Source: a phage. Taken from it: DNA of 64,000 nucleotides. Position numbers and translations under genes: made by a program. Location: assembly GCA_012474735.1 (NCBI GenBank), contig GCA_012474735.1_4085.1. One strand, written 5' to 3'. The notes beneath the pieces were generated by a model. That model had not been told where the DNA came from and searched no databases. It was given only the letters and a program-made list of their open reading frames with translations. How positions within the stretch are numbered: position 1 is the stretch's first letter; each line of letters starts with the position of its first letter. Shown piece after piece: positions 427 through 15,460 of this stretch.

Positions 427-444
427 TTTATTACTCCTTTTAGT

Positions 445-502
445 GGGGGAGGATATCTCCCCCTATGCAAAACATTATACTTTGTTTTAGTTATTATGCA
501 AG
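445..502 (-). promoter_or_regulatory. sigma70-like early promoter plus 5' leader hairpin
   Basis: rc: CTTGCA-N17-TATAAT (497..502 / 474..479); hairpin GGGGGAG-N5-CTCCCCC 445..463. Confidence 0.6.
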
Positions 503-757
503 TACTTTTTTCATATAAAGATTATATTCTACACCGCCGTAACCTTCTACGATGATATGTTTTGCGTTATCACGTTTGCACATAGTGAAACCGTTGTTGA
601 TGTGTTCTGCATTTTCCAGGGCGACATCACCGATAGCGGCACATACGGCACTAATAACAGTATTCCGCAAAGTACTGGTATCATTAGCGGTCATAGTAGT
701 TTGCAGTACTACGTTGTCGTATACGTGTGCATTGATAGTGATTTCGATAGTGTTCAT
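494..757 (-). CDS. hypothetical early protein (87 aa)
   Basis: ORF; SD GGAG; promoter unit upstream. Confidence 0.55.
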   Translation of the reverse strand: MNTIEITINAHVYDNVVLQTTMTANDTSTLRNTVISAVCAAIGDVALENAEHINNGFTMCKRDNAKHIIVEGYGGVEYNLYMKKVLA

Positions 758-775
758 GGTGTATCTCCTGGACTG

Positions 776-837
776 GCGGGAGAACTATTCCCCCGATCTA
801 TGTAAAACATTATACGTTAATCTAACTACAATGCAAG
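776..837 (-). promoter_or_regulatory. sigma70-like early promoter plus leader hairpin
   Basis: rc CTTGCA 832..837, TATAAT 809..814, spacer 17; hairpin 776..795. Confidence 0.6.
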
Positions 838-843
838 TACTTT

Positions 844-1035
844 TTAAATTTTATTTCCGATATAGTCCGGTCTATTCTTTTCGGTCATACGCTTTGCTAA
901 TGTTTGCATATGGCTTATTGCGTTTAATGTGTCTTCCTCCAGGGATGAATCAACATAATCAGGATCATTCTTCACCTTGCAATGATTATGATAGCGTAGT
1001 ACTGCCAGTACTTTTTTAACTTCTTCTACTGTCAT
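844..1035 (-). CDS. hypothetical protein (63 aa)
   Basis: ORF; start overlaps stop of upstream gene (coupling). Confidence 0.5.
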   Translation of the reverse strand: MTVEEVKKVLAVLRYHNHCKVKNDPDYVDSSLEEDTLNAISHMQTLAKRMTEKNRPDYIGNKI

Positions 1036-1304
1036 AATAAGTACCCCACTTCGTTAGCTTTCAGGTTAGTATCAATCATCAGTGGATTTTTGTAGTTCAC
1101 AAAACGATTAGTTTTCTCGATAGCGAATCCCATATAATCCAGCTTACTAACAGTACATTCATTCTTAAAAACTTCTTTCGCTGCATCGATGGCTGATTGC
1201 ATGGATAACCGACCATCTAAATTAATGTTTCCAAATGATCCACCAGCAGAAGTAGGATTACCGTTCATATCTTTAATGATCATAGTAGCGGAGTAGCTGG
1301 ACAT
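1032..1304 (-). CDS. hypothetical protein (90 aa)
   Basis: ORF; promoter unit 1327..1385 upstream. Confidence 0.55.
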   Translation of the reverse strand: MSSYSATMIIKDMNGNPTSAGGSFGNINLDGRLSMQSAIDAAKEVFKNECTVSKLDYMGFAIEKTNRFVNYKNPLMIDTNLKANEVGYLL

Positions 1305-1326
1305 AATTTTGTTTCCTTTTAGTATC

Positions 1327-1385
1327 GGGGAGAACTATTCTCCCCTTGATGTAAACTATTATACAGTACTGATATACTTTGTCAA
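1327..1385 (-). promoter_or_regulatory. sigma70-like early promoter plus leader hairpin
   Basis: rc TTGACA 1380..1385, TATAAT 1358..1363; hairpin GGGGAGAA-N3-TTCTCCCC 1327..1345. Confidence 0.6.
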
Positions 1386-1388
1386 TAC

Positions 1389-1610
1389 TTAATTACGTTT
1401 AAAATGATATGTGCCTTTATCATCCTGTACGCCCCACACTGATTTACCATCAACACCAGTGAAACCGGATTGTAATTCAATATGGAAACCATTATTATCA
1501 ACTACAAAAACTTTTTTATTTTCATCCCGATAACATTGATATTCTGAATCAACATTAAAGGCCGCATCATTCAGAAGATTGGAAGCGTAAATGCAAGTCA
1601 TTGTAGTCAT
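1389..1610 (-). CDS. hypothetical protein (73 aa)
   Basis: track ORF trimmed to ATG at 1610; MFYIERGK extension is translated promoter/hairpin. Confidence 0.5.
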   Translation of the reverse strand: MTTMTCIYASNLLNDAAFNVDSEYQCYRDENKKVFVVDNNGFHIELQSGFTGVDGKSVWGVQDDKGTYHFKRN

Positions 1611-1628
1611 GATTTTATTCCTTATTGC

Positions 1629-1691
1629 CAGGGAGAACCATTTCCCCCTCTCGATATAAAACATTATACTTGATTCTAAGTACAATGCAAG
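1629..1691 (-). promoter_or_regulatory. sigma70-like early promoter plus leader hairpin
   Basis: rc CTTGCA 1686..1691, TATAAT 1663..1668, spacer 17. Confidence 0.6.
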
Positions 1692-1804
1692 TACTTTTTA
1701 TCAAATACTTTAAAATAGTTTTCAGTACTGAATACTTATATAATAGATACACTTATGCACCCTGTGGGTCAGTGAGTTATCTCTCAATGAATATATATTA
1801 GCAA

Positions 1805-1828
1805 AGGGACTGACCGGAGTCAATCCCT
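1805..1828 (-). terminator. intrinsic terminator hairpin
   Basis: AGGGACTGAC-CGGA-GTCAATCCCT inverted repeat with flanking T/A runs, downstream of 1842..2426. Confidence 0.5.
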
Positions 1829-1841
1829 TTTTTAATCTTTT

Positions 1842-2426
1842 TTATCGTGTTATAGTTACGGCTTTTACATCACGCTTTTTATAGTACTGATTCCAGATAT
1901 TGCGGGTTAAACCGTAATCAAGTACTTTAATAAGTCCATTACGATCCTGGCCGATATTCTGTTTTCTGATATCTCTTATCGTTAGTGTTGATAATGTATC
2001 ATCGACGTGTTGTAGTGCATCAGCAAAGCGGTGCTGGCGTTCAATGGCATTACGTTTAATATTGTACTTTAATTCGTTGCACGCGTTAACGTGCTTCACA
2101 CTGCCTTTACTTGCAGTACTCAACCGATCCATAACGATAAACATATTATCAGGATCGCATAAATGCATATGCACCTTTGCAAAGTACTGTTTCAATTGAG
2201 GGCGGTCATAGTCTAAAAAATTCCATACCTTACATTCAGTTTCATTTTGTTCTACACCCGCATCACAATTGGCGACCTTAATCACTAACCGATCATTTAA
2301 AGCGAATACGATACGGGAAGAACCCGCCCCGATGATCTCCAGGCCAGCTAACCGACAAGCTGAAAGGATCTCTTTGTTGGTTTCCATTTCTGACAGTGTA
2401 CGGATGAATTTAGTATAATTACGCAT
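1842..2426 (-). CDS. protein kinase-like protein
   Basis: VIKVA, DIRKQN and LDYG motifs resemble kinase beta3-Lys, catalytic loop and DFG; start set at ATG 2426 after AAGGAG. Confidence 0.45.
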   Translation of the reverse strand: MRNYTKFIRTLSEMETNKEILSACRLAGLEIIGAGSSRIVFALNDRLVIKVANCDAGVEQNETECKVWNFLDYDRPQLKQYFAKVHMHLCDPDNMFIVMDRLSTASKGSVKHVNACNELKYNIKRNAIERQHRFADALQHVDDTLSTLTIRDIRKQNIGQDRNGLIKVLDYGLTRNIWNQYYKKRDVKAVTITR

Positions 2427-2457
2427 TGCATGTTCTCCTTGAGTTAATGAAACTATC

Positions 2458-2700
2458 TTACAGTACTTTACTATCAATGGCAACCACTTTTTTCACACTA
2501 ACCGCGTGAATCACTTCCTTAGTGTTTTTAGTACTGAATACTTTCGCTGTTCCTTGTTCTACTGCAATGCGATAACGACCGTTAACATCAACCATATTAA
2601 TAAAGTCCGGTGTACTAAACCGAGTAGTACGGCATTTCAGTACTGTTAACAATTCCACCAGCGATGTAGTTTCTTTGATACGTTTTTCTAAAGTAATCAT
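2458..2700 (-). CDS. hypothetical protein (80 aa)
   Basis: ORF; TTGACA-containing promoter-like sequence upstream. Confidence 0.5.
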   Translation of the reverse strand: MITLEKRIKETTSLVELLTVLKCRTTRFSTPDFINMVDVNGRYRIAVEQGTAKVFSTKNTKEVIHAVSVKKVVAIDSKVL

Positions 2701-2758
2701 TTTGTTTTCCCCCGTGTTGGTATGTACATATAGTACTAAAACATTTGAGTACTGTCAA

Positions 2759-2978
2759 TTAGATAATTGCATATTTCTTTAAAGATAATGCGTCTTGGGT
2801 TGGCTGATACTCAATGCCGTTACCGTTATCTACTTTAACTAATAAACCTTTGTCAATTAGTTTTTTAATAGTCCTTTGGCCTTGTTGAAAATTGGTAAAA
2901 TGTGAATCATTACGAAAGGTATAACCGTGCTTAACTGCTTCATCAATAGTTTTCTTTTCGATTTTAGATAATTTCATT
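2759..2978 (-). CDS. hypothetical protein (73 aa)
   Basis: ORF trimmed to MKLSKIEKK start; SD GGGAGAAAC. Confidence 0.5.
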
Positions 2979-3030
2979 TTGTTTCTCCCGTGTTGGTATG
3001 TGTACATAATACTAAAACAATTGAGTACTG

Positions 3031-3285
3031 TCAACGTGATATTAGTTTTATTTTCTTATTATATTGTTGGTGTTCATATAGGTTTATCTTTCCTGTGTTC
3101 TCAATTACTATTCTGTTGTTAGTGTCTACATCGATTACACGCAGTTTTCCGTTGCTTAACTTCCTTGGTAATAGGTTACCATTAATAAACTCATTAGCAA
3201 GCTGTACGGCCTTTGTGATGATTCTCTGTGGTGCTTTATAGTGTACCCGCAAGATATTATCTTTAGATAGTTGTACCTTAATCAT
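3031..3285 (-). CDS. hypothetical protein (84 aa)
   Basis: ORF; SD AGGA. Confidence 0.5.
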   Translation of the reverse strand: MIKVQLSKDNILRVHYKAPQRIITKAVQLANEFINGNLLPRKLSNGKLRVIDVDTNNRIVIENTGKINLYEHQQYNKKIKLISR

Positions 3286-3306
3286 TTTAGTTTATCCTAT
3301 AAAAAA

Positions 3307-3325
3307 GGCGGGAACTGATCCCGCC
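3307..3325 (-). terminator. intrinsic terminator
   Basis: rc GGCGGGA-TCAGT-TCCCGCC followed by TTTTTT, just after stop of 3348..3743. Confidence 0.6.
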
Positions 3326-3347
3326 GTGTTGTTAGTACTGCAAGTTA

Positions 3348-3743
3348 TTAGATAACCTGGCGGCGTTTACTGTATACTGTTACACGATTACCCTTACGGT
3401 CGTGTCGGATCTCTTTCTGGTTGCGAACCAGTTCACTTGGACGCTTAAGGTTTGCCAGGTGATCCGCGTGAGTCCAAGCGGTATGGTTTGTCTGTACTTT
3501 GATATCAGAATCAGCGATAAATTCATCTTGTGCGTTAAGTACTGCCGCCAGTAAATCCGCTCGTTTTAGTTCTGCTGCTGTTAGTACTGGCTCCGGTGAA
3601 TTCACGATATCAGAGATTTCTTTGAACTGTACGGCCCAGCGTTGACCTTTCGGTGCATCTTTGCCCATGTCTTTAAATGCTGCTCCTTCCTCGCGTGCAA
3701 CAATACGGGCAGCTTCACGGGTAGCGTAGAATTTAGTAATCAT
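3348..3743 (-). CDS. hypothetical protein, paralog of 15779..16044
   Basis: shared FATRE-ARI-AR, FKDMG, DRKGNRVTVY motifs. Confidence 0.6.
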   Translation of the reverse strand: MITKFYATREAARIVAREEGAAFKDMGKDAPKGQRWAVQFKEISDIVNSPEPVLTAAELKRADLLAAVLNAQDEFIADSDIKVQTNHTAWTHADHLANLKRPSELVRNQKEIRHDRKGNRVTVYSKRRQVI

Positions 3744-3787
3744 GGTATACATCCTATTAGTTAAGTTAGTACTACAAGTTAGAGTCT

Positions 3788-3816
3788 ATTATAAAGTACT
3801 ATCTGGGCAATGTCAA
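3788..3816 (-). promoter_or_regulatory. sigma70 consensus promoter
   Basis: rc TTGACA-N17-TATAAT. Confidence 0.6.
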
Positions 3817-3838
3817 ATAGTACTTTAAATGGATTCTA

Positions 3839-4162
3839 TTACATGTCTTTCTTACGTTTTACATCGTAGTAGCGAACTGTTATTTCTTTGTTAATCTCTT
3901 TTTCGATGCGGTGAATAACTTTTTCTTTCGGGTTGAAACCTATAACGGTTTCTTTAATGATCTCCAAACCAGTGTATTCGCCTTGCGTACCGTAACCGTA
4001 TGTAAAGGTTTCATGTCCCAGGTCTTCCCAACGATCACCAATCAATGCAGACACGTAGCAAGAGTGGTAAGTATTGCCGTGTGAATCAGTCCACCGATTA
4101 ACTTTAATGTCAAAGGAGGTTACAATTTTCAGTTCTACTTTCTGGGTAAGGATCATAGCCAT
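3839..4162 (-). CDS. hypothetical protein, paralog of 10097..10420
   Basis: shared RWTDS-GNTYHSC and FTYGY motifs, both end VKRKKD; start trimmed. Confidence 0.6.
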   Translation of the reverse strand: MAMILTQKVELKIVTSFDIKVNRWTDSHGNTYHSCYVSALIGDRWEDLGHETFTYGYGTQGEYTGLEIIKETVIGFNPKEKVIHRIEKEINKEITVRYYDVKRKKDM

Positions 4163-4245
4163 TTTTATTTCTCTCTTTGTTAGGAGGGGAACCATTCCCC
4201 CCTTGATGTAAACTATTATACAGTACTAAGATACTTTGTCAATAC

Positions 4246-4521
4246 TTAATTATTATAAATGTCGTGAATAGTGATAAAGTTTTTACGACCGTAAACCTGC
4301 AAATCAATATCAATGTAGTGCTTATCAAGTACATCCTCGACGCTTAACGCGGTGTCGTGAATATCTTCGTAGAATTGAGGATCTACAATCTTGCTTAAGT
4401 CATCCGGCGTTAACTTATCGTTAAGCAGTTGAACCGCCTGGATATCTGCTTCACGTTTCCAGTCTTCCAGGTTAGTAGTCAGTACTTGTTCGATTTCGTT
4501 AGCTGTCAGTAGAATCCGCAT
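4246..4521 (-). CDS. hypothetical protein (91 aa)
   Basis: ORF behind tandem promoter/leader module. Confidence 0.55.
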   Translation of the reverse strand: MRILLTANEIEQVLTTNLEDWKREADIQAVQLLNDKLTPDDLSKIVDPQFYEDIHDTALSVEDVLDKHYIDIDLQVYGRKNFITIHDIYNN

Positions 4522-4554
4522 TTTAATGTTTCCTTATCAGTGGTTGATGTAAGT

Positions 4555-4699
4555 ATTATACTCGTTTACTTTCTATTGTCAAACTATTTTATCAGGGGAG
4601 TTTTTCGTATGTCTTACTCCTGGACTACTTAACGGGGTTACTTGTTTCGTTCCCCGTCCTGATGTAAAACATTATACTTGATTCTAAGTACAATGCAAG
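4555..4699 (-). promoter_or_regulatory. tandem sigma70-like promoters flanking a conserved structured leader
   Basis: P-a rc TTGACA-N16-TATAAT 4555..4582; P-b 4671..4699; 70-nt leader 4590..4660; near-identical copy at 15068..15214. Confidence 0.55.
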
Positions 4700-4807
4700 T
4701 ACTTTTTAAAAATAGTTTTCAGTACTTGATAGTACTAGCCACCAGCAAACAATAGATACATTTATGCACCCTGTGGGCTAGATTGTTTCAATGCATATAT
4801 AATAGCA

Positions 4808-4831
4808 AAGGGACTGACCGGAGTCAATCCC
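4808..4831 (-). terminator. terminator-like hairpin
   Basis: same AGGGACTGACCGGAGTCAATCCCT element as 1805..1828. Confidence 0.45.
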
Positions 4832-5271
4832 TTTTTCAATTATTTTTAAACTTGTTTTGGGTTGCGATATGTGATAGCGTTCGGGTACATTTGTTTAATG
4901 TTATTCCATGCCTGGTTAACATTGTAACCACTTGAGCGAATCAGTTGGTTACTACCGACACCTTGAAACACTACTTCGAATAAGAATTCTTTCATGCTTT
5001 CACCTCGCGATCTGCTTTACCTTTACGCCAGGACATTACTAATTGTTCGCGTTGCCATAAATCGAGTGATACAAAAAGTTTTGCGGTATCACTTTTAGGA
5101 TACTCGCCAGTAGTACCTAACCGATAAAACAGATCTTTCAGTACTGATAATTCTACTTGAATCATTTTATTACTCCTGATTGCGTTAATACTTCTACTAT
5201 TGCATGAATGATCATAAGTACAGCTAAAACAATAATCATCGGATTCATTTGCATAAGCTGTACTCCTTATA

Positions 5272-5484
5272 TTAATCTTTCAGCCAATGATCTTGAATGA
5301 ATTTTTCACAGAATCCCTGTTTCATGGATTCTAACAGGCGTTCACGGTGAGCGTTGGCAAATTGCTCAGTACTATGCGTTACGCCAGGCTGATAACGTGA
5401 TACCCCATCCGGTCCGATGTATTGTACATCCCACGGTTTTTCGTTAGTATCAGACCATTTACGAACGATTAGTTGACCTTGCAT
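5272..5484 (-). CDS. hypothetical protein (70 aa)
   Basis: ORF; promoter unit 5502..5561. Confidence 0.55.
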   Translation of the reverse strand: MQGQLIVRKWSDTNEKPWDVQYIGPDGVSRYQPGVTHSTEQFANAHRERLLESMKQGFCEKFIQDHWLKD

Positions 5485-5501
5485 TTTTCTTTCCTCTCAG
5501 T

Positions 5502-5561
5502 GGGGAGAATCATTTCTCCCCTTCATGTAACTTATTATACAGTACTAGATTACATTGTCAA
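5502..5561 (-). promoter_or_regulatory. sigma70-like early promoter plus leader hairpin
   Basis: rc TTGACA 5556..5561, TATAAT 5534..5539; hairpin GGGGAGAA-N4-TTCTCCCC 5502..5521. Confidence 0.6.
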
Positions 5562-5567
5562 TAGTTT

Positions 5568-5891
5568 TTATTCACCTTGTTTGAATTTAGTTTTCTCCAT
5601 TGATTCCATGATTGCAACCAATACGCCGTGGATCTCGCTTAACGCGGAATCACTAAAAGCATTAATGAATAGTCGATCATTCTCGCGAATATTTTTAATG
5701 TACTTTTCAGCAGTAGTTGCGAATTCATTCAACGGTAGATCAAATGCTTTATCCCATGATGGATGGCGTAATTGTAACAGTACTGGATTATCACGATCAC
5801 CAGGGGAAAACGTACCAGTGATGAAACATACGCCCGGAATACTTTCGAACTGGCAACGGACTTCCTTTGTGATAGTAGTATGAATGTACAT
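5568..5891 (-). CDS. hypothetical protein (107 aa)
   Basis: ORF; SD GAGGA. Confidence 0.5.
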   Translation of the reverse strand: MYIHTTITKEVRCQFESIPGVCFITGTFSPGDRDNPVLLQLRHPSWDKAFDLPLNEFATTAEKYIKNIRENDRLFINAFSDSALSEIHGVLVAIMESMEKTKFKQGE

Positions 5892-5918
5892 TTATTGTTA
5901 TCCTCTATTAAATTAATA

Positions 5919-6113
5919 TTACAGTTTATGAATCAATTCTTTATCTAAGCGATAGCGTACATTATTAATAGTAACGGCATTGTTTTTAATGCTACGCTGT
6001 ACAGGTCCACCAGCAATAACAAATGTTGCTTTATTACCCCGAACAATGATAGCACTTCCAGGATTACCGAAATCATCTTGTACTAAAATACTTGATAAGT
6101 TTTCCATTTTCAT
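5919..6113 (-). CDS. hypothetical protein (64 aa)
   Basis: ORF; hairpin/promoter-like unit 6120..6185. Confidence 0.5.
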   Translation of the reverse strand: MKMENLSSILVQDDFGNPGSAIIVRGNKATFVIAGGPVQRSIKNNAVTINNVRYRLDKELIHKL

Positions 6114-6185
6114 TTCCTCTTAGTAGGGGAAGATGTTTCCCCTTGATGTAAGTACTATAACAGTACTGAAAACTAAATGCAAGTA

Positions 6186-6542
6186 CTATGATAAAATCAT
6201 GATAGGATATTCACTATCGATCAGTACTTCGAATCCGAAACCTTCGTACCATTCTTTAAGATTGAAGGCGTTATCTTCTCCTGTATCGCATTCTAAAATG
6301 ATACAATCTGAATCATCGGCGGCATCAATAAAGGCATTCATTAATTCGTTACCTTCACCATTGCCCCGACTATCAGGATCAACATAAAGAGAATCAATAA
6401 ACGCTACACGGTCATAATCAAGATCCGGTGCAATGATTCCACGTTTAACAAACCAGTACTGCAATTGTGCTACTTTGCCCTGTACTTGATAGCCAGTGAT
6501 CTCGCCATTGTCAGTAGTACGCGTGATATGTTGTATTCCCAT
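6186..6542 (-). CDS. possible GNAT-family acetyltransferase
   Basis: RGNGEGNELMNAFI resembles GNAT motif A (R/Q-x-x-G-x-G/A). Confidence 0.35.
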   Translation of the reverse strand: MGIQHITRTTDNGEITGYQVQGKVAQLQYWFVKRGIIAPDLDYDRVAFIDSLYVDPDSRGNGEGNELMNAFIDAADDSDCIILECDTGEDNAFNLKEWYEGFGFEVLIDSEYPIMILS

Positions 6543-6605
6543 GATTTCTATCCTCAGTTAAGATATAAAACATTATACACTATCTTTCAGTACTGTCAAT
6601 ACTTT

Positions 6606-6863
6606 TTATCTCATAGATCTATGCCAACAATTACGCGGGGGACGTTTAAAAGTACTATCATGATCCTCCTGGCAAGTTATGCAGTACTTACATCCCTTAA
6701 CGGCCTGGCGTCGTTTCTCAGGGATTATATCGCCGCAGTCGAGGCAATGTATCAGTGATTCTATTTGTGCGTTAATTTGCTTTCTAGCGTGGTTAACGGC
6801 GGCCTGAATCACTGCGTTAATCTCGTCTTGCTCGGCCCCATCTTTCGCGAATCCAACAGCCAT
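6606..6863 (-). CDS. TraR/DksA-family C4 zinc-finger protein
   Basis: CLDCGDIIPEKRR...CKYCITCQ matches TraR/DksA CxxC-N17-CxxC finger. Confidence 0.55.
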   Translation of the reverse strand: MAVGFAKDGAEQDEINAVIQAAVNHARKQINAQIESLIHCLDCGDIIPEKRRQAVKGCKYCITCQEDHDSTFKRPPRNCWHRSMR

Positions 6864-7194
6864 TATTTTAACCTCATTATAAAAATACTATAGTACTGTA
6901 ATGCGACAATAATATTACTTGTTCTTACTTTTTCCAATCCACATGATACCACATATTCATCCCCATATGTGCGAAACGATACACCATGAAAATTTTTATA
7001 CACTTGCACTACTAATCATAACCTTTCGTCTAACCAACTGCATAGAATTATACTACTTTACGCAAATTGATCAAGTATTGATCAGATCATTTTTTGATCA
7101 ATATTATACAGTTACATTTGTGCACCCTATGGGTTAGTGACGTTCTCGTCTTGATGTAAGTATTATGCCAGTACTGGATGATATTGTCAATAGA

Positions 7195-7392
7195 TTATTT
7201 TAATTTTTTTCTGTCATTGATTAATGCTTTCAGTACTATACTAATGATTTGCAATGATTCATCAATGACTATAAAATTATTCTCTTTCATTAGATGATAG
7301 TTACCATTGATTGTATATTCTAAGGTGTACTGTTTACGTTTAATTTTTGATAATGTTTCTATTTGTTTTTGTACTGATTTCATGCTAATCAT
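7195..7392 (-). CDS. hypothetical protein (65 aa)
   Basis: ORF. Confidence 0.45.
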   Translation of the reverse strand: MISMKSVQKQIETLSKIKRKQYTLEYTINGNYHLMKENNFIVIDESLQIISIVLKALINDRKKLK

Positions 7393-7742
7393 TGTTAAAC
7401 GTCCTGTAACGCATTCTAACGAGATAAACGGTTTAGTACTGGCATTGTATAGGGTAATGAATTAAAGCCCACCAGCGTTAACCAGTGGGCTATAATCTTA
7501 CATCTTGCGGATAATCTTAACAGTATCTTTCACCGATTTACCGTCTTGCTGGCATTGCTCGATCATTGCGTATTGTTCTGCTGTAAGATCCTCGCCAGTT
7601 TTTGCCAGTACTGCGTCGATGAATGAATCCAGTGCGATCATTTTGTTTCTCTCTTAGGTTAAGTTAACTACTGTTTATAAAACTTATTATACAGTACTAT
7701 CAAACGTTGTCAATATCTTTAATAGTACTGGTAATATATTTT

Positions 7743-7922
7743 AGCGGTAATCGTCGTATGCTTTATTCACCTGGCGAATGTAACTTTCAAAGGCTTCGTC
7801 TACCGTTTCATACTCCCGAACATAATCACCATAGGAAACTACATACATACCTTTTTGATCTTCAAACGACATGATGATAGAATCCAGGCCGATGATTTCA
7901 GTTTTTGCGATGATAGCCATTT
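7743..7922 (-). CDS. small hypothetical protein (59 aa)
   Basis: ORF below 60-aa cutoff found by eye; MAIIAK start like 10512..10724; promoter upstream. Confidence 0.4.
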
Positions 7923-8002
7923 TTAATTCCTTAGTAGTGTAGTTGATAAAAGTTATTATGCCAGTACTATCAAACTATGTCAATAGTACTGTGATAATAT
8001 TT

Positions 8003-8215
8003 TTAGTTAATGATAGTCAGTGTAAAATTGTAATCCCCTGCCTGGTATAGTACTTTATCGCCGAACGTTCCAACATGTTTCATATTGCAATAGATACCCA
8101 TAACACTTTTTACATCTTTGATATTCCGAACGCCAGTAATATCCTTGTTTAAATGATCGTGATCAGAAAATAAAACTTGTTTTGCATTTTTCAGTACAGT
8201 GCAGATATTAGCCAT
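8003..8215 (-). CDS. hypothetical protein (70 aa)
   Basis: ORF; promoter unit 8236..8295. Confidence 0.55.
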   Translation of the reverse strand: MANICTVLKNAKQVLFSDHDHLNKDITGVRNIKDVKSVMGIYCNMKHVGTFGDKVLYQAGDYNFTLTIIN

Positions 8216-8235
8216 TTTGTTTTCTCTCTGTTAGT

Positions 8236-8295
8236 GGGGAGAATCATTTCTCCCCTTCATGTAACTTATTATACAGTACTATAATCTATTGTCAA
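8236..8295 (-). promoter_or_regulatory. sigma70-like early promoter plus leader hairpin
   Basis: near-identical to unit 5502..5561. Confidence 0.6.
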
Positions 8296-8311
8296 ACTAT
8301 TTTTTTTTATA

Positions 8312-8653
8312 TTATTCGAAATCTTCTGGACCGGACTGATAATCATCTTCACCGTATGCACTTTCTAACTTCTCGCCAGTGTGATCATCAGTTAGTGAAT
8401 CATCCTCATAATTCACGTCTACGCCTACAATGTAAAACTGGCTATCGTCTGGATCATTGAAATTAATTTTCTGAATGTTTACAATAACTGTATTGATGCC
8501 CAGGACACAGCCATCAGCCGTTACAAAGTACTGATAGTTTTCACAACCGCCTGAATTGAAACCGTAATTGATTTCGGCCCGACCATCATTTAAACGCAGT
8601 GCCTGGGCGATGATTTCGTTTTCAAAGTTAGATTGAGCAATTGAGATAGTCAT
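8312..8653 (-). CDS. hypothetical acidic protein (113 aa)
   Basis: ORF; promoter unit 8675..8734. Confidence 0.55.
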   Translation of the reverse strand: MTISIAQSNFENEIIAQALRLNDGRAEINYGFNSGGCENYQYFVTADGCVLGINTVIVNIQKINFNDPDDSQFYIVGVDVNYEDDSLTDDHTGEKLESAYGEDDYQSGPEDFE

Positions 8654-8674
8654 GATTCGTTTCCTTATTACTAG

Positions 8675-8734
8675 GGGAAACCGTTTCCCCTTGCGATGTA
8701 AAACATTATACGCTTATTGAGATAGTTTGCAAGT
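8675..8734 (-). promoter_or_regulatory. sigma70-like early promoter plus leader hairpin
   Basis: rc CTTGCA 8729..8734, TATAAT 8706..8711; hairpin GGGGAAA-CCG-TTTCCCC. Confidence 0.6.
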
Positions 8735-8848
8735 ACTTTTTATCAAATACTTTAAAATAGTTTTCAGTACTCAAACATTATACAATAGATACACTCCTGC
8801 ACCCTGTGGGCTAGTGAGCTATCTCTCAATGATTATATAATAACAAAA

Positions 8849-8868
8849 TGGCTGACCGAAGTCAACCA
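8849..8868 (-). terminator. terminator hairpin (possibly bidirectional)
   Basis: TGGCTGAC-CGAA-GTCAACCA with T-runs on both sides. Confidence 0.5.
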
Positions 8869-9099
8869 CTTTTTTCATTTATTTTTTAGCTTTAAGTACT
8901 GCGGCCTTTCGTGTCATGCCTTGCTTGATGTATTCCTGTACTTTCGCTTTACGTGCTTTAGCTTTATCTGCTTTAGTTTTAGGAGTACTGTAAACTATAC
9001 CGTTAGGATTCATTTAAATCACCATAAAGAATAGATAGGTTACTAACAACGCCGCGATCAATGCACCGACCAGGGCCGAACTGTAATAAGCTAATGATT

Positions 9100-9252
9100 T
9101 CATTTTTTAGCCTGAAAGTAATGTTTAATTTGTGCGGCGGTCAGTGCACAATTACGCAGGAAGTTTTCTGTATAACTGCGTCGAGTACTGAAAGAGAATT
9201 GACCTTTGCCGTTACCGATAGTAACATCAAACCGAGCGTTGTATTGTTTCAT
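9100..9252 (-). CDS. hypothetical protein (50 aa)
   Basis: track ORF trimmed to ATG 9252 after SD GGAG. Confidence 0.45.
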   Translation of the reverse strand: MKQYNARFDVTIGNGKGQFSFSTRRSYTENFLRNCALTAAQIKHYFQAKK

Positions 9253-9270
9253 TTTGTATCTCCTGTTATT

Positions 9271-9330
9271 GGGGAGAACCATTTCCCCCCTCTATGTAAA
9301 ACATTATACGCCTTTTTACAGTACTGTCAA
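9271..9330 (-). promoter_or_regulatory. sigma70-like early promoter plus leader hairpin
   Basis: rc TTGACA 9325..9330, TATAAT 9303..9308; hairpin 9271..9290. Confidence 0.6.
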
Positions 9331-9695
9331 ACTAAATCTAAATCTTTTAATGCTTTGTTAACCATATTTTCAATGATAGAATCAATAGGATCATTTTCAA
9401 TCATGCAATAGTTATAATAGTCTTGCTCAATACTACTATCATATACCATTACTTTTTCTTTATCGACATCAACTACATAGCCATTGAGCTTAAGGAGATC
9501 GATTTTATCCTGTACGGTTAAACCTGGGCCACCTTTAGCAGTACTACTAACCGGAAGGATACTAGCCATTGCCTGGACTTGTTCGACGCTGTAACGCTCA
9601 TAAAGGCGGCATTCTTCCGGTGTTAACATAGCATCAGTACGCTTCATCGGTTTAATGATGCTTTCGATCTCATTCAGTACTTGATTAACGTTCAT
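9327..9695 (-). CDS. hypothetical protein (122 aa)
   Basis: ORF. Confidence 0.5.
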   Translation of the reverse strand: MNVNQVLNEIESIIKPMKRTDAMLTPEECRLYERYSVEQVQAMASILPVSSTAKGGPGLTVQDKIDLLKLNGYVVDVDKEKVMVYDSSIEQDYYNYCMIENDPIDSIIENMVNKALKDLDLV

Positions 9696-9746
9696 GGTAT
9701 AATCCCCAATATAAGCGGCCTAAATCGACCACTGACGATGATTTGA

Positions 9747-10016
9747 TCAATAGGTGTATGGTTGACGCTCAAACAATGATTGCACGTTGTACGCCCCGCT
9801 AATGGGCTTCGCTGGCAAATCAATTTTATATTGTTCACGGCGAAAGATAATAAAACGGCAATTGTTTTTAACATCAAAATTGATTGAACGTTCCAGGAGT
9901 TTTCCATCGTGCACAAATACAAGATAACCGCTTGGTACTTGTTTTGTAGAACTGGTTGCAACCATAGACCGACGAACATGTGTACCTGCATCGATTAAAG
10001 TACTGATATTTTTCAT
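9747..10016 (-). CDS. hypothetical protein (89 aa)
   Basis: ORF; SD GAGGA. Confidence 0.5.
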   Translation of the reverse strand: MKNISTLIDAGTHVRRSMVATSSTKQVPSGYLVFVHDGKLLERSINFDVKNNCRFIIFRREQYKIDLPAKPISGAYNVQSLFERQPYTY

Positions 10017-10096
10017 TTTACTATCCTCTTAAGTTGATTTAATTTCTTTCTCCTATGCAGACACTATATCAAAGTATCTGCATAAAGTAAAGCTAA

Positions 10097-10420
10097 TTAA
10101 AGATCTTTTTTGCGTTTAACATTCTGTACAGTACAATGCAACGGGATATTAAGATCATTGCACAAACGATAGAGGGAGGTTTCAACAGTATCAAGCCCGT
10201 CTACTGATTCCTTTAAGAGTGATACCGCCGTTTGTTGATATGCATCCTCATAGCCATAAGTAAATGATTCAACCGCCAGATCATTCAAGCCGTTATCCAG
10301 TTCAACGCTTACATGACAAGAATGATAAGTATTGCCATATGAATCAGTCCAACGTTTACCGTCAACATTGATTGCATGGATTGCAGCCAGGGAAACGGTG
10401 TTGATGATAGTTTTAGCCAT
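10097..10420 (-). CDS. hypothetical protein, paralog of 3839..4162
   Basis: shared motifs; promoter rc TTGACA-N17-CATAAT upstream. Confidence 0.6.
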   Translation of the reverse strand: MAKTIINTVSLAAIHAINVDGKRWTDSYGNTYHSCHVSVELDNGLNDLAVESFTYGYEDAYQQTAVSLLKESVDGLDTVETSLYRLCNDLNIPLHCTVQNVKRKKDL

Positions 10421-10511
10421 TTTAGTATTCCTTAAATTAATATGTGTCGTCTTGATAAAATCTATTATGCCAGTACTATCAAACTATGTCAATAGTACTG
10501 TGATAATATTT

Positions 10512-10724
10512 TTACTTACTTTCTTTCGCTGCTTTATATGTTGCCACTGCCATAACCACATCAGCACGAACAAAGTTTTTAACCGTGTCACTGTAATAAT
10601 TGATCGCATCATCTATATCTGCGAACGTCCGATACATACCGCACCAAGATACTTTATAACCTTCTTTCACTTCTGCCAGTTTAACGATAGTCTTGTTAAC
10701 TTTGATTTTAGTAATGATAGCCAT
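10512..10724 (-). CDS. hypothetical protein (70 aa)
   Basis: ORF; promoter unit 10742..10802. Confidence 0.55.
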   Translation of the reverse strand: MAIITKIKVNKTIVKLAEVKEGYKVSWCGMYRTFADIDDAINYYSDTVKNFVRADVVMAVATYKAAKESK

Positions 10725-10741
10725 TTTAGTTTCCTTGTAGT

Positions 10742-10802
10742 GGGGAGAATCATTTCTCCCCTTGATGTAATGTATTATACTTTATTCGATTTACTTTGCA
10801 AG
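10742..10802 (-). promoter_or_regulatory. sigma70-like early promoter plus leader hairpin
   Basis: rc CTTGCA 10797..10802, TATAAT 10774..10779; hairpin 10742..10761. Confidence 0.6.
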
Positions 10803-10810
10803 TACTTTTT

Positions 10811-11038
10811 TTAATTTAATTCATCCAGGCAAAGGATACGTTCCACACCAAGATCCGTTAAACTAATGGTCGGCACTTGATAGGTTTCAATGTATGCTAC
10901 ACTTGCCCACTGACCGAACTCATTAACGGCCCAGGTATTCATTGCATTTTGCAATTCCGCACCTGCCTTGTTCGTAATGACTGCAACTACTTGTTCGTTG
11001 CCAGTAGTACCAGATACGCGAGTAATGATAATAGCCAT
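10811..11038 (-). CDS. hypothetical protein (75 aa)
   Basis: track ORF trimmed to MAIIITRV start. Confidence 0.5.
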   Translation of the reverse strand: MAIIITRVSGTTGNEQVVAVITNKAGAELQNAMNTWAVNEFGQWASVAYIETYQVPTISLTDLGVERILCLDELN

Positions 11039-11057
11039 TGTTTTGATTCCTTTGATT

Positions 11058-11265: not shown

Positions 11266-11281
11266 CTATAGACACAAAAAA

Positions 11282-11323: not shown

Positions 11324-11806
11324 TTATGCTTCAACTTTGCGATGAGCTTCGATCCATTCCTCGCGAGTCATACCGCTTTCTTTGATAGCGTCCAGTACTA
11401 CCGCAATGCAGTTACCGCGTACAGGAATCATATGTTCTTCCCCGTTATCAAGTACTACAGTAACACGTTCTTGAATCCATTTTTTAGGTTTAGATTCTGG
11501 CTTATCTTCACCATACTTAACCGCCAGGGCTTTATGTGCCATTTCTACAACTACTTCCAGATCCAATCCAGCCACCGCCGCCTGGATACTTTCGATTGTT
11601 GCTTGCAGTTCGGCTTCACGGGCTTTTTTCTGTTCTTCCAGTTCTGCTACCTTTTTGGCTTGCAGTTCTTTAGCTTCACTGTACGCAATGTTAAAATTGT
11701 TGCGTACTGCTTTCATGGTATCGTTATCCAGGTCAGCCAACAATTCAGCAGCAATAACAGTATCGTTTGAAATCAGTGCTTTCAGGAATGATTTTACATT
11801 AGCCAT
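11324..11806 (-). CDS. hypothetical coiled-coil-rich protein (160 aa)
   Basis: ORF trimmed to MANVKSF start; SD GAGGA. Confidence 0.5.
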   Translation of the reverse strand: MANVKSFLKALISNDTVIAAELLADLDNDTMKAVRNNFNIAYSEAKELQAKKVAELEEQKKAREAELQATIESIQAAVAGLDLEVVVEMAHKALAVKYGEDKPESKPKKWIQERVTVVLDNGEEHMIPVRGNCIAVVLDAIKESGMTREEWIEAHRKVEA

Positions 11807-11859
11807 TTTATAAATCCTCAATTAAAGTTTAGTTTACGTTTATTAGTGTATCAAAGTTT

Positions 11860-11975
11860 TATCGACGTGTCCAGTTTTTCGTTCGACTTACTGGCGGTCT
11901 ACTTAGTGCTCCCCGTCTTGATGTAATACATTCTACGCTTTTCTGCGGTAATGTCAACTACTTTTTTTAAAACTA
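11860..11975 (-). promoter_or_regulatory. diverged copy of structured leader plus promoter
   Basis: rc TTGACA-N17-TAGAAT; leader shares ACGAAAAACU loop hairpin with 4590..4660. Confidence 0.4.
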
Positions 11976-14423: not shown

Positions 14424-15035
14424 TTAATATGCGATTGATTCTACTACGCCATCAATAACATTGAATTGATATTCGTTACCCTCAATCAGTGCCGTAATGT
14501 TTTCAGTAGTGAATTGATCCTCATATGCATTCTCTAAATCACGGTACAACTTGCGGGATAATTCACGAATAGTTTCAGTGAGTAGTTCCTCAAGCTCATT
14601 AACTAACGTTTCTTGTTTTGCGGTTAAATCAGTGTAAGCCGATTCAATGTACCCGCTTACAGTATTCTCATGCGAGTAGTGGGAGTGAGAACGCTTTACA
14701 CTCATCGCCAAATCATCTTCATTCAGCAAGTGACGGATTGAGCGATACTTAGTTAATGCTCTTACCTTGCGTAAAAACTTCACTGCGTCAACGTGGTCAG
14801 TACTGATTGATGCACCGTCACCCTGGGACCAAAAACCACTGAATTGTATTTCAGCGTCATTAATGCCATATTCCGGTAGTACTGTTTCTTTATAGTATTC
14901 AATTTCACTTTCAGAAAAATAATTGTCGTTTGAGTTTTTTTCACGTTCCCGAACCAGTTCGATAGCCGCCGCTTGTTGTTCTGCGTTCAGTTCAGAAAAA
15001 GCCATAACGAAAGTAGTAGTAGTGATAGTTTTCAT
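14424..15035 (-). CDS. hypothetical protein (203 aa)
   Basis: ORF behind tandem promoter/leader module. Confidence 0.55.
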   Translation of the reverse strand: MKTITTTTFVMAFSELNAEQQAAAIELVREREKNSNDNYFSESEIEYYKETVLPEYGINDAEIQFSGFWSQGDGASISTDHVDAVKFLRKVRALTKYRSIRHLLNEDDLAMSVKRSHSHYSHENTVSGYIESAYTDLTAKQETLVNELEELLTETIRELSRKLYRDLENAYEDQFTTENITALIEGNEYQFNVIDGVVESIAY

Positions 15036-15067: not shown

Positions 15068-15214
15068 ATTATACGCTTTTAAAAACATTTGTCAAACTAT
15101 TTTATCAGGGGAGTTTTTCGTGTGCCTTACTCCTGGGCTACTTAACGGGGAGTTACTTATTTCGTTCCCCGTCCTGATGTAAAACATTATACGCCTTTAA
15201 ACATAGTTTGCAAG
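15068..15214 (-). promoter_or_regulatory. tandem promoters flanking structured leader (copy 2)
   Basis: near-identical to 4555..4699; P-a 15068..15095, leader 15103..15173, P-b 15186..15214. Confidence 0.55.
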
Positions 15215-15257: not shown

Positions 15258-15286
15258 TTGACAGCACTATCCAGTACTGGCATAAT
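15258..15286 (+). promoter_or_regulatory. plus-strand promoter-like element
   Basis: TTGACA-N17-CATAAT; convergent with minus promoter 15392..15420. Confidence 0.4.
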
Positions 15287-15391: not shown

Positions 15392-15420
15392 CAATGAATA
15401 CATTATGCCAGTACTGACAT
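15392..15420 (-). promoter_or_regulatory. minus-strand promoter-like element
   Basis: rc TTGACT-N17-CATAAT; mirror of 15258..15286. Confidence 0.4.
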
Positions 15421-15460
15421 TTTAAGTCAATACCGGCAATTGTAAATATTTGTAAACTAC

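What the first reader, a model, noticed from the sequence alone, without database searches (positions are those of the whole stretch)
4555..4699. Duplicated 145-bp regulatory module with a structured leader between tandem promoters
Two near-identical copies (4555..4699 and 15068..15214) sit upstream of unrelated genes, and a diverged third copy is at 11860..11975. The leader between the promoters has alternative pairing possibilities (ACGGGG/CCCCGU and GGAGU/ACUCC). The third copy keeps a 5-bp stem with a 14-nt loop AAGxCxxACGAAAA but has a different, compensated stem (CCAGU/ACUGG), which is covariation consistent with a functional RNA element such as an attenuator or protein-binding leader.
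Basis: seen in the sequence. Interest (0 to 1): 0.6.

Follow-up and report, generated by a model that had tools for sequence, protein, structure and literature searches.

The report
Conserved structured leader between tandem phage promoters
The repeated 145-bp module is real: two host-type early promoters flank a ~75-nt folded RNA leader, and that leader is a diverged copy of an unannotated RNA motif that also sits between promoters A1 and A2 of phage T7 and in about 500 related phages.

Summary
The window is an Asteriusvirus-type jumbo coliphage, and the element reads on the minus strand. Each copy has a strong sigma-70 promoter P1, then a 62-79-nt leader starting at +1, then a second promoter P2, then an unrelated early gene.

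Copies A and B fold as a closing helix (AUCAGG/CCUGAU) around two hairpins. Copy C keeps the closing helix and the second hairpin.

The same core occurs in other jumbo phages, in rV5-like phages, and once per genome in at least 502 T7-like phage records. The core is an unpaired UAAGUAG(A)C segment plus a hairpin with loop UAAGNCNNACGAAAA. In T7 it lies exactly between A1 and A2.

A covariance model built only from T7-like sequences ranks the three window copies as its top three hits. The stems covary: hairpin 2 occurs as CCUG/CAGG, CUUG/CAAG, CCAG/CUGG and GGAG/CUCC. In T7-likes the hairpin-1 loop forms a covarying pseudoknot.

Rfam has no match. The leader is not a terminator-type attenuator, a tRNA or a boxA site.

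The function is unknown. My best guess is a cis-acting leader RNA that buries the 5' end and presents two conserved single-stranded segments to a host factor. A put-like RNA polymerase modifier and a decoy RNA remain open.

The parts
4671..4698 (-). Copy A, promoter P1: -35 TTGCAT, 16-nt spacer, -10 TATAAT. An A/T-rich UP-like tract lies upstream at about 4699-4722.
   Evidence: A sequence identical to this promoter also occurs at 1663-1690 in front of an ordinary 5' hairpin.
4587..4663 (-). Copy A, leader RNA domain. The inferred +1 is A4663. Closing helix 4658-4663 with 4591-4596. Hairpin 1 at 4632-4657 (ACGGGG / 14-nt loop / CCCCGU). Junction UAAGUAGUCCA at 4621-4631. Hairpin 2 at 4597-4620 (GGAGU / AAGACAUACGAAAA / ACUCC).
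   Evidence: Fold energy is -20.9 to -21 kcal/mol with z = -2.8 to -3.65. The T7-derived covariance model scores it 19.2 bits, E = 0.013 in the window. The transcription start is inferred by analogy with T7 A1.
4555..4582 (-). Copy A, promoter P2: TTGACA, 16-nt spacer, TATAAT (12 of 12 consensus positions). It is followed by ACTTACATC, an SD sequence and the ATG at 4521.
4246..4521 (-). Gene downstream of copy A: 91 aa, PHROG 14947, function unknown. The same gene with the same leader and P2 is present in Justusliebigvirus phage muut.
   Evidence: a 512-bp block at 93.75% identity.
15186..15213 (-). Copy B, promoter P1: TTGCAA, 16-nt spacer, TATAAT. It is identical to the promoter at 15744-15771.
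15100..15178 (-). Copy B, leader RNA domain. Closing helix 15173-15178 with 15104-15109. Hairpin 1 at 15145-15172. Junction UAAGUAGCCCA at 15134-15144. Hairpin 2 at 15110-15133 with loop AAGGCACACGAAAA.
   Evidence: Fold energy is -22.2 kcal/mol with z = -2.3 to -3.4. The covariance model scores it 16.0 bits, E = 0.085.
15068..15095 (-). Copy B, promoter P2: TTGACA, 16-nt spacer, TATAAT (12 of 12).
14424..15035 (-). Gene downstream of copy B: 203 aa, PHROG 5162, function unknown.
11930..11957 (-). Copy C, promoter P1: TTGACA, 16-nt spacer, TAGAAT (11 of 12).
11861..11922 (-). Copy C, leader RNA domain without hairpin 1. Long-range helix AUC (11920-11922) plus GACG (11914-11917) pairs with CGUC (11864-11867) plus GAU (11861-11863). 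Junction UAAGUAGACCG at 11895-11905. Hairpin 2 at 11871-11894 (CCAGU / AAGUCGAACGAAAA / ACUGG).
   Evidence: The covariance model scores it 27.5 bits, E = 1.1e-4 in the window. The fold shows the same topology, but the energy is not distinguishable from shuffles (z = -0.5 to -0.7).
11826..11854 (-). Copy C, weak P2-like site: TTGATA, 17-nt spacer, TAAACT.
   Evidence: Read from the sequence. It is not among the listed scan hits.
11324..11806 (-). Gene downstream of copy C: 160 aa, PHROG 27871. Homologues follow the same type of leader in phages 7t3, Hallingskeid and EJP2.

Best explanation
The module is a tandem early-promoter cassette. Its inter-promoter segment is transcribed from P1 into a conserved, compactly folded 5' leader RNA. 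This leader is a diverged member of the motif that lies between promoters A1 and A2 of T7-like phages.

Shown here:
- The fold is a long-range helix enclosing an unpaired UAAGUAG(A)C segment and a hairpin with the conserved loop UAAGNCNNACGAAAA. Copies A and B carry an extra hairpin.
- The stems covary across phage families while the single-stranded segments stay constant.
- The element always lies in the sense orientation, downstream of a strong host-type promoter, and nearly always upstream of a second one.

Inferred: it acts as RNA, in cis, on P1 transcripts. In the window copies the helix starts at the predicted +1. The triphosphate 5' end is therefore buried, which by established knowledge of E. 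coli mRNA decay (RppH and RNase E 5'-end dependence; 5'-terminal stem-loops stabilise mRNA) should protect the transcript. The two invariant purine-rich single strands are most likely a docking site for a host component shared by all these phages. P2 then supplies a second mRNA isoform without the domain. Which factor binds, and with what effect, is not resolved.
For: Homology:
- A covariance model built only from 20 distinct T7-like sequences ranks copies C, A and B as the top three hits in the window (E = 1.1e-4, 0.013, 0.085).
- BLAST with copy C reaches T7-group phages at the A1-A2 interval and several jumbo phages.
- The T7 annotation places A1 at 498 and A2 at 626, flanking the motif.

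Structure:
- In 37 distinct sequences, 91.8% of cells pair. The inner four pairs of hairpin 2 pair in 100% of sequences, with CG<->GC, CG<->GC/UA and UA<->AU exchanges. No shuffle out of 500 reaches the covariation score, and slid controls collapse to 27-48% paired.
- The pseudoknot between the hairpin-1 loop and the sequence 3' of hairpin 2 is 96% paired and has compensatory variants (sequences).
- G-U pairs occur on the sense strand only: GC 10, GU 10, AU 2 at one pair.
- All ten non-T7 leaders fold into the same topology at minimum free energy.

Constraint: the leader varies less than its flanks among Asteriusviruses. In phage A7_1 it is an isolated 87-bp block at 91% identity between non-homologous promoters.

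5' end: P1 has the same 7-nt distance from the -10 element to the A as T7 A1, and neighbouring promoters share A1's start ATCGAGAGGG.
Against: - No experiment bears on function.
- The transcription start of P1 is inferred, not mapped.
- In T7-like phages the motif starts about 40 nt into the transcript, behind a separate 5' hairpin. Burying the 5' end therefore cannot be the universal core function.
- Transcripts from P2 (or from T7 A2 and A3) lack the domain and presumably still work.
- Copy C's fold energy is not better than shuffled sequence (z about -0.6).
- Covariation counts come from related sequences. One alignment (A3) was fitted to the model, which inflates the pairing figures.
- From memory, T7 deletion D111 removes A2 and A3 and is viable, so the element is probably not essential in the laboratory.
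Confidence: 0.35

Rival explanations
1. It is a put-like modifier of RNA polymerase. The nascent leader stays bound to the polymerase that made it and makes it resistant to pausing or termination, so that P1-initiated polymerases read through the many terminators of the early region. In T7-like phages the same effect would help the polymerase keep pulling the genome into the cell.
For: - The element is promoter-proximal, about 60-80 nt long and built of two helices. It is found at the start of early transcription units in phages whose only obvious common partner is the host polymerase.
- HK022 putL and putR are about 70 nt, made of two stem-loops, lie downstream of early promoters and act without protein factors (PMC9378689).
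- The early region of the window is dense in terminator-like hairpins (G17 annotation).
Against: - The architecture differs from put: short 4-6-bp stems with 14-17-nt loops, against two long stems with a triplex.
- No Rfam family matches.
- Polymerases starting at P2, A2 or A3 would be unmodified.
- From memory, T7 A1 transcripts terminate efficiently at TE in vitro.
- No terminator lies between copies A or B and the next promoter.
Confidence: 0.2
2. It is a trans-acting decoy or sponge RNA. P1 exists mainly to make large amounts of a stable small structured RNA, released by processing just 3' of the closing helix, which titrates a host protein such as a ribonuclease, an RNA chaperone or an RNA-sensing defence. 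P2 is then the real promoter of the gene.
For: - A dedicated near-consensus promoter drives a compact fold with a buried 5' end, and a second promoter immediately follows.
- The loops are invariant across unrelated phage families that infect the same host order.
- No copy is found in bacterial chromosomes, so the element is phage-specific.
- From memory, T7 leader fragments released by RNase III accumulate in infected cells.
Against: - No terminator or recognisable processing signal follows the domain.
- There is no reason for a free-standing small RNA always to sit between tandem promoters.
- No candidate partner emerged. There are no GGA motifs in the T7-type loops, no ARN repeats, and the 16S rRNA resemblance is not significant.
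Confidence: 0.25
3. It is purely a DNA-level element. One version is a recombination cassette of the PeSL type that shuffles early genes. The other is an upstream (UP or activator) site for P2. In either version the transcribed RNA has no function.
For: - The early region is a mosaic of at least 15 promoter-plus-hairpin cassettes.
- P1 of copies A and B are each identical to another promoter elsewhere in the window.
- The gene after copy A is replaced in phages 121Q and JP4, with the junction just after P2.
- rV5-like phages share many of these cassettes and genes.
- PeSLs are described in PMC2839356 and PMC4122927.
- In T7-likes the A-tract of the hairpin-2 loop sits where a proximal UP subsite of A2 would be (read from the sequence).
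Against: - Compensatory changes in three helices, together with sense-strand G-U pairs, are not expected for a duplex-DNA site.
- The distance from hairpin 2 to the next -35 ranges from about 2 nt (T7-likes) to about 50 nt.
- The pseudoknot partner covaries in the lineages that have lost the A2 -35 element.
- Shuffling explains why the module is duplicated. It does not explain why its interior is conserved from T7 to jumbo phages.
Confidence: 0.08
4. It is a transcription attenuator: alternative hairpins decide whether P1 transcripts terminate before the gene.
For: Two G+C-rich hairpins lie in a 5' leader.
Against: - Neither hairpin is followed by a U-run. Hairpin 1 is followed by UAAGUAG and the closing helix by AAAAUAG.
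- The terminator scan reports no site inside any of the three leaders.
- The hairpins coexist in the minimum-energy and centroid folds.
- No leader peptide or known riboswitch was found.
Confidence: 0.03

Closest known systems
The interval between promoters A1 and A2 of phage T7 (about nt 538-593) and of T7-like phages generally
   Same: It is the same element. A hairpin is followed by (A/U)UAAGUAGACAG and then by a second hairpin with loop AUAAGUC(R)(Y)A(Y)GAAAAA. It lies downstream of the first host-type early promoter, and the second promoter follows directly. The covariance model from these phages recovers the window copies.
   Different: - In T7-likes the long-range helix is a pseudoknot between the hairpin-1 loop and the -35 region of A2, and a separate hairpin occupies the 5' end.
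- In the window the long-range helix is a nested closing stem that starts at +1.
- Hairpin 1 has a 14-nt loop in copies A and B and is absent from copy C.
- The window has three copies per genome, against one in T7-likes.
- In the records I saw, only the promoters are annotated, never an RNA.
HK022 put RNAs (putL and putR)
   Same: Both are about 70-nt, two-helix, promoter-proximal RNA elements in phage early operons, with more than one copy per genome.
   Different: There is no sequence or model match. Put has long stems with a triplex and a V shape. Activity on RNA polymerase has not been tested for the present element.
Lambda nut sites and rrn leader antiterminators (boxA plus a hairpin)
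   Same: Both are leader RNA signals of early or rRNA operons. T7 itself carries a perfect rrn-type boxA (GCTCTTTAACAA) downstream of A3, preceded by a hairpin whose loop, UAACGAAAC, resembles the hairpin-1 loop of copies A and B.
   Different: No boxA lies near any of the three window copies. The only perfect boxA in the window is on the other strand at 53632.
PeSL 'promoter-early stem-loop' cassettes of T4-type phages (PMC2839356, PMC4122927)
   Same: Both are repeated early-promoter-plus-stem-loop units that flank small variable genes and mark recombination junctions. The window has at least 15 such cassettes, and the module's promoters are shared with them.
   Different: PeSLs are composite promoter-terminator motifs (title of PMC4122927). 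Here the hairpin follows the promoter as a 5' leader. The phage lineages differ. The 75-nt conserved domain has no PeSL counterpart.
5'-terminal stabilising stem-loops of E. coli mRNAs such as ompA (from my own knowledge)
   Same: A helix beginning within 0-2 nt of the predicted 5' end.
   Different: Generic stabilisers need no conserved loop sequence. This element has invariant junction and loop motifs, and in T7-likes it is not at the 5' end.

Membership tests
T7-group A1-A2 inter-promoter RNA motif (as defined here) | An unpaired junction UAAGUAG(A)C immediately 5' of hairpin 2 | tested here: met
   UAAGUAGUCCA, UAAGUAGCCCA and UAAGUAGACCG in copies A, B and C.
T7-group A1-A2 inter-promoter RNA motif (as defined here) | Hairpin 2: a 4-5-bp stem of free sequence with a 14-17-nt loop (A)UAAGNCNNACGAAA(A) | tested here: met
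   All three copies have it. The stems are GGAGU/ACUCC and CCAGU/ACUGG. Pairing is 100% in the inner four pairs across 37 distinct sequences.
T7-group A1-A2 inter-promoter RNA motif (as defined here) | A long-range helix joining a segment 5' of the junction to the segment just 3' of hairpin 2 | tested here: met
   It is a nested closing helix in the window copies and in other jumbo and rV5-like phages. It is a pseudoknot in T7-likes. The topology is the same but the strand register is not homologous column by column.
T7-group A1-A2 inter-promoter RNA motif (as defined here) | Sense orientation, downstream of a sigma-70-type early promoter and upstream of a second one | tested here: met
   P2 is weak in copy C.
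T7-group A1-A2 inter-promoter RNA motif (as defined here) | A significant score against a covariance model built without the window sequences | tested here: met
   In the 64-kb window, E = 1.1e-4 (C), 0.013 (A) and 0.085 (B). These are the top three hits. Copy B is marginal on its own.
HK022 put RNA | Two long stem-loops of about 70 nt (V shape, triplex in stem I) with put-like sequence | tested here: not met
   Here the stems are short and the loops large. No Rfam match was found.
HK022 put RNA | Factor-independent suppression of pausing and termination by the nascent RNA | not testable with these tools
   This needs in vitro transcription.
nut / rrn boxA-type antiterminator | A boxA sequence (GCTCTTTAACAA or CGCTCTTA) next to the hairpin | tested here: not met
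   No boxA with up to 2 mismatches lies near 4.6, 11.9 or 15.1 kb on the minus strand.
Intrinsic-terminator attenuator | A G+C-rich hairpin followed by a U-run, and mutually exclusive alternative pairings | tested here: not met
   The terminator scan finds no site in the leaders. The hairpins coexist in the fold.
PeSL-type mobile regulatory cassette | A repeated early promoter plus stem-loop flanking variable small genes, with exchange junctions inside the cassette | tested here: met
   At least 15 cassettes, identical P1 twins, and gene replacement after P2 in 121Q and JP4. The order of promoter and hairpin differs from T4-type PeSLs, and the lineage is different.
Any Rfam 15 family, tRNA or tmRNA | A score at or near the family threshold | tested here: not met
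   No gathering-level hit in the window. Only noise at E up to 10 around copy A and at E up to 1 in the T7, 7t3 and Hallingskeid loci. No tRNA genes.
5'-terminal stabiliser stem-loop | The helix begins within about 2-4 nt of the transcript's 5' end | tested here: inconclusive
   This is met if +1 is the A of ATCAGG or ATCAAG. The start site is inferred from T7 A1, not mapped.

The most novel reading that the evidence does not exclude
The leader defines a new class of phage RNA. It is a small pseudoknotted or three-way-junction domain, made as the very first transcript of virulent Enterobacterales phages, from T7 to 350-kb jumbo phages. It binds a conserved host machine and reprogrammes it at the onset of infection. 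The machine could be the transcribing RNA polymerase, the RNA-decay apparatus or an RNA-sensing defence. This would also explain why tandem early promoters are so widely conserved.
Probability: 0.35. Interest if true: 0.85.

Novelty: new variant of a known kind. Interest (0 to 1): 0.66.

Why it matters
T7's A1, A2 and A3 promoters are textbook material, yet the sequence between A1 and A2 carries no annotation beyond promoter signals in the T7-like records I examined.

Here that interval turns out to be a covariation-supported RNA fold. It is shared by at least 502 T7-like phage records and, in diverged form, by jumbo and rV5-like coliphages that share little else.

If it binds a host factor, it is a new and experimentally accessible handle on the first seconds of infection. 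That covers early mRNA fate, polymerase behaviour, possibly transcription-driven genome entry, and the purpose of tandem early promoters.

In practice it is a candidate Rfam family. It is also a part to keep, or deliberately remove, when T7-type early regions are engineered.

Tried and rejected
- Mimicry of 16S rRNA. From memory, the junction and hairpin 2 resemble 16S nt 860-912. Local alignment to rrsH is no better than shuffled sequence: between 9 and 291 of 300 shuffles score at least as well. Rejected.
- An antisense mini-ORF. On the plus strand of copies A and B there is an SD followed by ATG or GTG and 7 codons. It is absent from copy C, and the start codon is GCG in T7. Rejected.
- An antisense partner for the hairpin-2 loop elsewhere in the window. 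The hit count equals chance (34 observed, 33.8 expected).
- A host homologue or prophage copy. Two scans of 185,579 species genomes found only two phage-like contaminant contigs and coding-sequence coincidences, for example in what look like dksA-type coding sequences by my own reading. BLAST against E. coli genomes found nothing, but it is uninformative for short matches.
- Known RNA families, tRNA and CRISPR repeats. Nothing was found.
- A boxA next to the modules. Absent.
- 'The first promoter from the genome end'. In Klebsiella phage Kae01 the motif lies 3.6 kb into the terminal repeat, after six genes, so it is not simply the first promoter.
- Literature searches for a description of the T7 motif returned nothing relevant. 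Older papers in subscription journals are not covered.
- IMG/VR and metagenome scans with the A/B/C-type pattern found only Asteriusvirus-like contigs.

Full report
**1. Observation**

Copies A (4555-4699) and B (15068-15214) align at 126 of 151 columns (83%). Over the inter-promoter leader alone they match at 72 of 78 positions (92%), and the differences lie mostly in the promoter spacers. Copy C (11860-11975) is about 48% identical overall but keeps the core. The pattern TAAGNNNNACGAAAAACT occurs exactly three times in the window. The downstream genes are unrelated to one another: 91 aa (PHROG 14947), 203 aa (PHROG 5162) and 160 aa (PHROG 27871).

**2. Context**

The window is 94-97% identical to Asteriusvirus jumbo coliphages such as 121Q, PBECO4 and G17. 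In phages whose ends were determined, this region lies inside the long direct terminal repeat.

From 1 to about 18.5 kb all genes are small and lie on the minus strand. Most have their own near-consensus sigma-70 promoter: 11 perfect 12-of-12 matches on that strand. At least 15 of these promoters are followed directly by a short G+C-rich 5' hairpin of the type GGGGAGAA-NNNN-UUCUCCCC (families D1, D3 and D4). Several of these ordinary promoters start their transcripts with ATCGAGAGGG, which is the start of the T7 A1 transcript.

**3. Anatomy, read on the minus strand**

Copy A runs as follows.
- An A/T-rich tract, then P1 (TTGCAT, 16-nt spacer, TATAAT; 4698-4671).
- 7 nt, then A4663, the inferred +1.
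- AUCAGG.
- Hairpin 1: ACGGGG / 14-nt loop / CCCCGU.
- UAAGUAGUCCA.
- Hairpin 2: GGAGU / AAGACAUACGAAAA / ACUCC.
- CCUGAU, then AAAAUAG.
- P2 (TTGACA, 16-nt spacer, TATAAT; 4582-4555), then ACUUACAUC, an SD sequence and the AUG at 4521.

AUCAGG pairs with CCUGAU, so the leader is a three-way junction whose outer helix begins at the predicted first nucleotide. This is both the minimum-energy and the centroid fold for A and B (-21 and -22 kcal/mol; z = -2.3 to -3.7).

Copy C lacks hairpin 1. It has a long-range helix (AUC..GACG with CGUC-GAU) around UAAGUAGACCG and the hairpin CCAGU / AAGUCGAACGAAAA / ACUGG, followed by a weak P2-like site.

The two hairpins are therefore not alternatives. No U-run follows either one, and the terminator scan finds nothing in the leaders.

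**4. Relatives**

*Asteriusviruses.* All Asteriusvirus records carry the copies. The leader varies less than its flanks.

*rV5-like phages.* The A/B-type leader is also present at 89-96% identity in some Justusliebigvirus (muut, EmilieFrey, outra) and Vequintavirinae (A73, W70, A7_1, A5-4) phages. It is always placed between two promoters and is followed by different genes. In A7_1 the leader is an isolated 87-bp homologous block between unrelated promoters. In muut a 512-bp block also includes P2 and the gene. These phages share many other early genes and cassettes with the window, so this is a common mosaic pool of early genes.

*Other jumbo phages.* The C-type leader occurs in Salmonella phage 7t3, Klebsiella phage Kae01, Erwinia phage Hallingskeid, an IMG/VR 366-kb contig, EJP2 and the rV5-like phage LTH01. 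In 7t3, Hallingskeid and EJP2 it precedes homologues of the same gene.

*T7-like phages.* BLAST with copy C also hit T7-group phages between promoters A1 and A2. T7 reads ...CCGGGGUCAACCGG-AUAAGUAGACAG-CCUG-AUAAGUCGCACGAAAAA-CAGG-UAUUGACA, where the final UUGACA is the -35 element of A2. A pattern scan of IMG/VR returned 34 genuine loci, nearly all 37-45-kb T7-like contigs. BLAST of the T3-type core against GenBank phages found 502 records with one place each. The hosts span Escherichia, Klebsiella, Salmonella, Yersinia, Enterobacter, Shigella, Citrobacter, Serratia, Pantoea, Erwinia and one Aeromonas phage. In the listed rows the annotation under the match was nothing, a 'hypothetical protein', or a promoter signal, and never an RNA.

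**5. Evidence for structure**

I built a covariance model from 20 distinct T7-like sequences only. In the window, with filters off, it ranks copy C (27.5 bits, E = 1.1e-4), copy A (19.2 bits, E = 0.013) and copy B (16.0 bits, E = 0.085) as its three best hits. There is no further copy.

On the resulting alignment of 37 distinct sequences:
- 91.8% of cells pair, against 68% in column shuffles and 27-48% when partners are slid.
- No shuffle out of 500 reaches the covariation score.
- Hairpin 2 occurs as CCUG/CAGG, CUUG/CAAG, CCAG/CUGG and GGAG/CUCC, with a fifth closing pair that is G-C, G-U or A-U.

On a MAFFT alignment of T7-likes that was not fitted to the model, hairpin 2 is 100% paired. The hairpin-1 stem covaries as CCGG/CCGG, CCAG/CUGG, CCAC/GUGG and CGGG/CCCG.

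In T7-likes the hairpin-1 loop (R)GUCAA is complementary to UUGAC just 3' of hairpin 2. Where that sequence has changed, the loop has changed with it: GUCAC/GUGAC, GUCAU/AUGAC and GAUUAG/CUAAUC. This helix is 96% paired and three of its pairs show changes on both sides.

This pseudoknot is topologically the same long-range helix as the closing stem of the window copies. The closing stem also differs between lineages: AUCAGG/CCUGAU, GACG/CGUC, GACGG/CCGUC, AUCAA/UUGAU, CGGC/GCCG and GCGGC/GUCGC.

G-U pairs are tolerated only on the sense strand. The distance to the next -35 element ranges from about 2 nt (T7-likes) to about 50 nt. Both facts argue for RNA rather than a duplex-DNA site.

Two caveats apply. 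The sequences are related, and one alignment (A3) was fitted to the model. Several compensatory types are each carried by a single lineage.

**6. What it is not**

- No Rfam family, tRNA or tmRNA matches.
- It is not a terminator or attenuator.
- No boxA lies nearby.
- The resemblance to 16S rRNA is not significant.
- There is no conserved small ORF on either strand.
- There is no antisense partner in the window.
- There is no copy in bacterial chromosomes.

**7. Mechanism**

*Shown.* The element is a conserved fold with free-sequence helices and two invariant purine-rich single strands: UAAGUAG(A)C and UAAGNCNNACGAAAA. It is made from a strong early promoter, and a second promoter nearly always follows.

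*Inferred.* It works as RNA. The invariance of the single strands across phage families that share a host order, but little else, points to a host partner. In the window copies the helix starts at +1, which should block 5'-end-dependent decay. The neighbouring promoters carry generic 5' hairpins, so protection of the 5' end is evidently selected in this region.

I therefore favour a cis-acting, factor-binding, 5'-protective leader (0.35). The alternatives are a put-like polymerase modifier (0.20), a decoy RNA (0.25), a DNA-only cassette or site (0.08) and an attenuator (0.03).

The duplication itself is best explained by PeSL-like modular shuffling. P1 of copy A is identical to the promoter at 1663-1690, and P1 of copy B to the promoter at 15744-15771. 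The gene after copy A is replaced in 121Q and JP4, with the junction just after P2.

**8. Comparison and novelty**

The closest known object is the T7 A1-A2 interval itself. In the records I examined it is annotated only for its promoters. Put, nut/boxA, PeSL cassettes and 5' stabiliser hairpins each share some logic, but none fits as a family (see the membership tests).

I could find no description of the RNA motif in Rfam 15 or in the searchable literature. Older papers in subscription journals were not searchable, so prior notice cannot be excluded.

I rate it a new variant of a known kind, namely cis-regulatory leader RNAs of phage early operons, with a real chance of being a new class.

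Noticed in passing
window 1757, 4766, 7122, 8799, 15365 (minus strand); 12834, 15307, 17462 (plus strand): A second repeated non-coding motif, RCCCAYAGGGTGC, has 8 copies in the first 18 kb against 0.65 expected. Upstream of module copy B, two inverted copies form an ~80-nt hairpin (15262-15396 minus strand, -46.9 kcal/mol, z = -3.25). It is flanked by convergent promoter-like sites (15430..15402 minus strand, 15258..15286 plus strand). This may be another structured RNA or a sense/antisense pair.
   Followed up: partly
window 53632-53643 (+): A perfect rrn-type boxA, GCTCTTTAACAA, which is the only exact match in the window. Its strand and context were not examined.
   Followed up: no
L045 (T7) 514-525, about T7 nt 813-824: T7 carries the same perfect boxA downstream of A3. 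It is preceded by the hairpin GGUC-UAACGAAACCU-GACC and by UAAGAC. That hairpin loop resembles the hairpin-1 loop (AACGAAAC) of window copies A and B.
   Followed up: no
window 441-16944, minus strand: At least 15 cassettes consist of a near-consensus promoter plus a 5' hairpin (GGGGAGAA-NNNN-UUCUCCCC type). Several begin with ATCGAGAGGG, the same start as the T7 A1 transcript. Two promoter classes are visible: AAAAAGTACTTGCA...TATAATG, and TTGACA...AGTACTGTATAAT with an extended -10.
   Followed up: partly
window 1663-1690 and 15744-15771: The P1 promoters of module copies A and B are each identical over 28 nt to another promoter that drives an ordinary hairpin leader. This suggests recombination within the conserved TATAATGTTTTACATC segment.
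   Followed up: partly
window 22885-32800: Seven or eight tandem paralogous units of about 1.2 kb each. Every unit has its own promoter-like TATAAT, an SD sequence and a conserved N-terminus, MLPFGRM (repeat families D2 and D5).
   Followed up: no
window 1777-1832, 4781-4836, 8819-8874 and 39.4-53.3 kb: A hairpin of the form AAAGGG(C/A)UGACCGRAGUCAA(C/U)CCUUU is repeated at least 12 times. G17 annotates it as a terminator. It contains a TTGACT -35-like hexamer followed by TATTAT, so terminator and promoter overlap.
   Followed up: no
L001-L003, L036, L048 compared with window 1-17 kb: The early regions of rV5-like phages (Justusliebigvirus, Vequintavirinae) share many small early genes and promoter cassettes with this jumbo phage at 70-94% nucleotide identity. 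This indicates a common exchangeable pool of early genes.
   Followed up: partly
L089, L092, L095, L098 (bacterial genomes): The 19-base motif pattern also matches coding sequence whose translation (...MEEVDRTVSHMKDEAANFPDP...) looks DksA-like to me in several gammaproteobacteria. The gene identity is my own reading and was not checked with a tool. This is a coincidence, not a homologue of the motif.
   Followed up: yes
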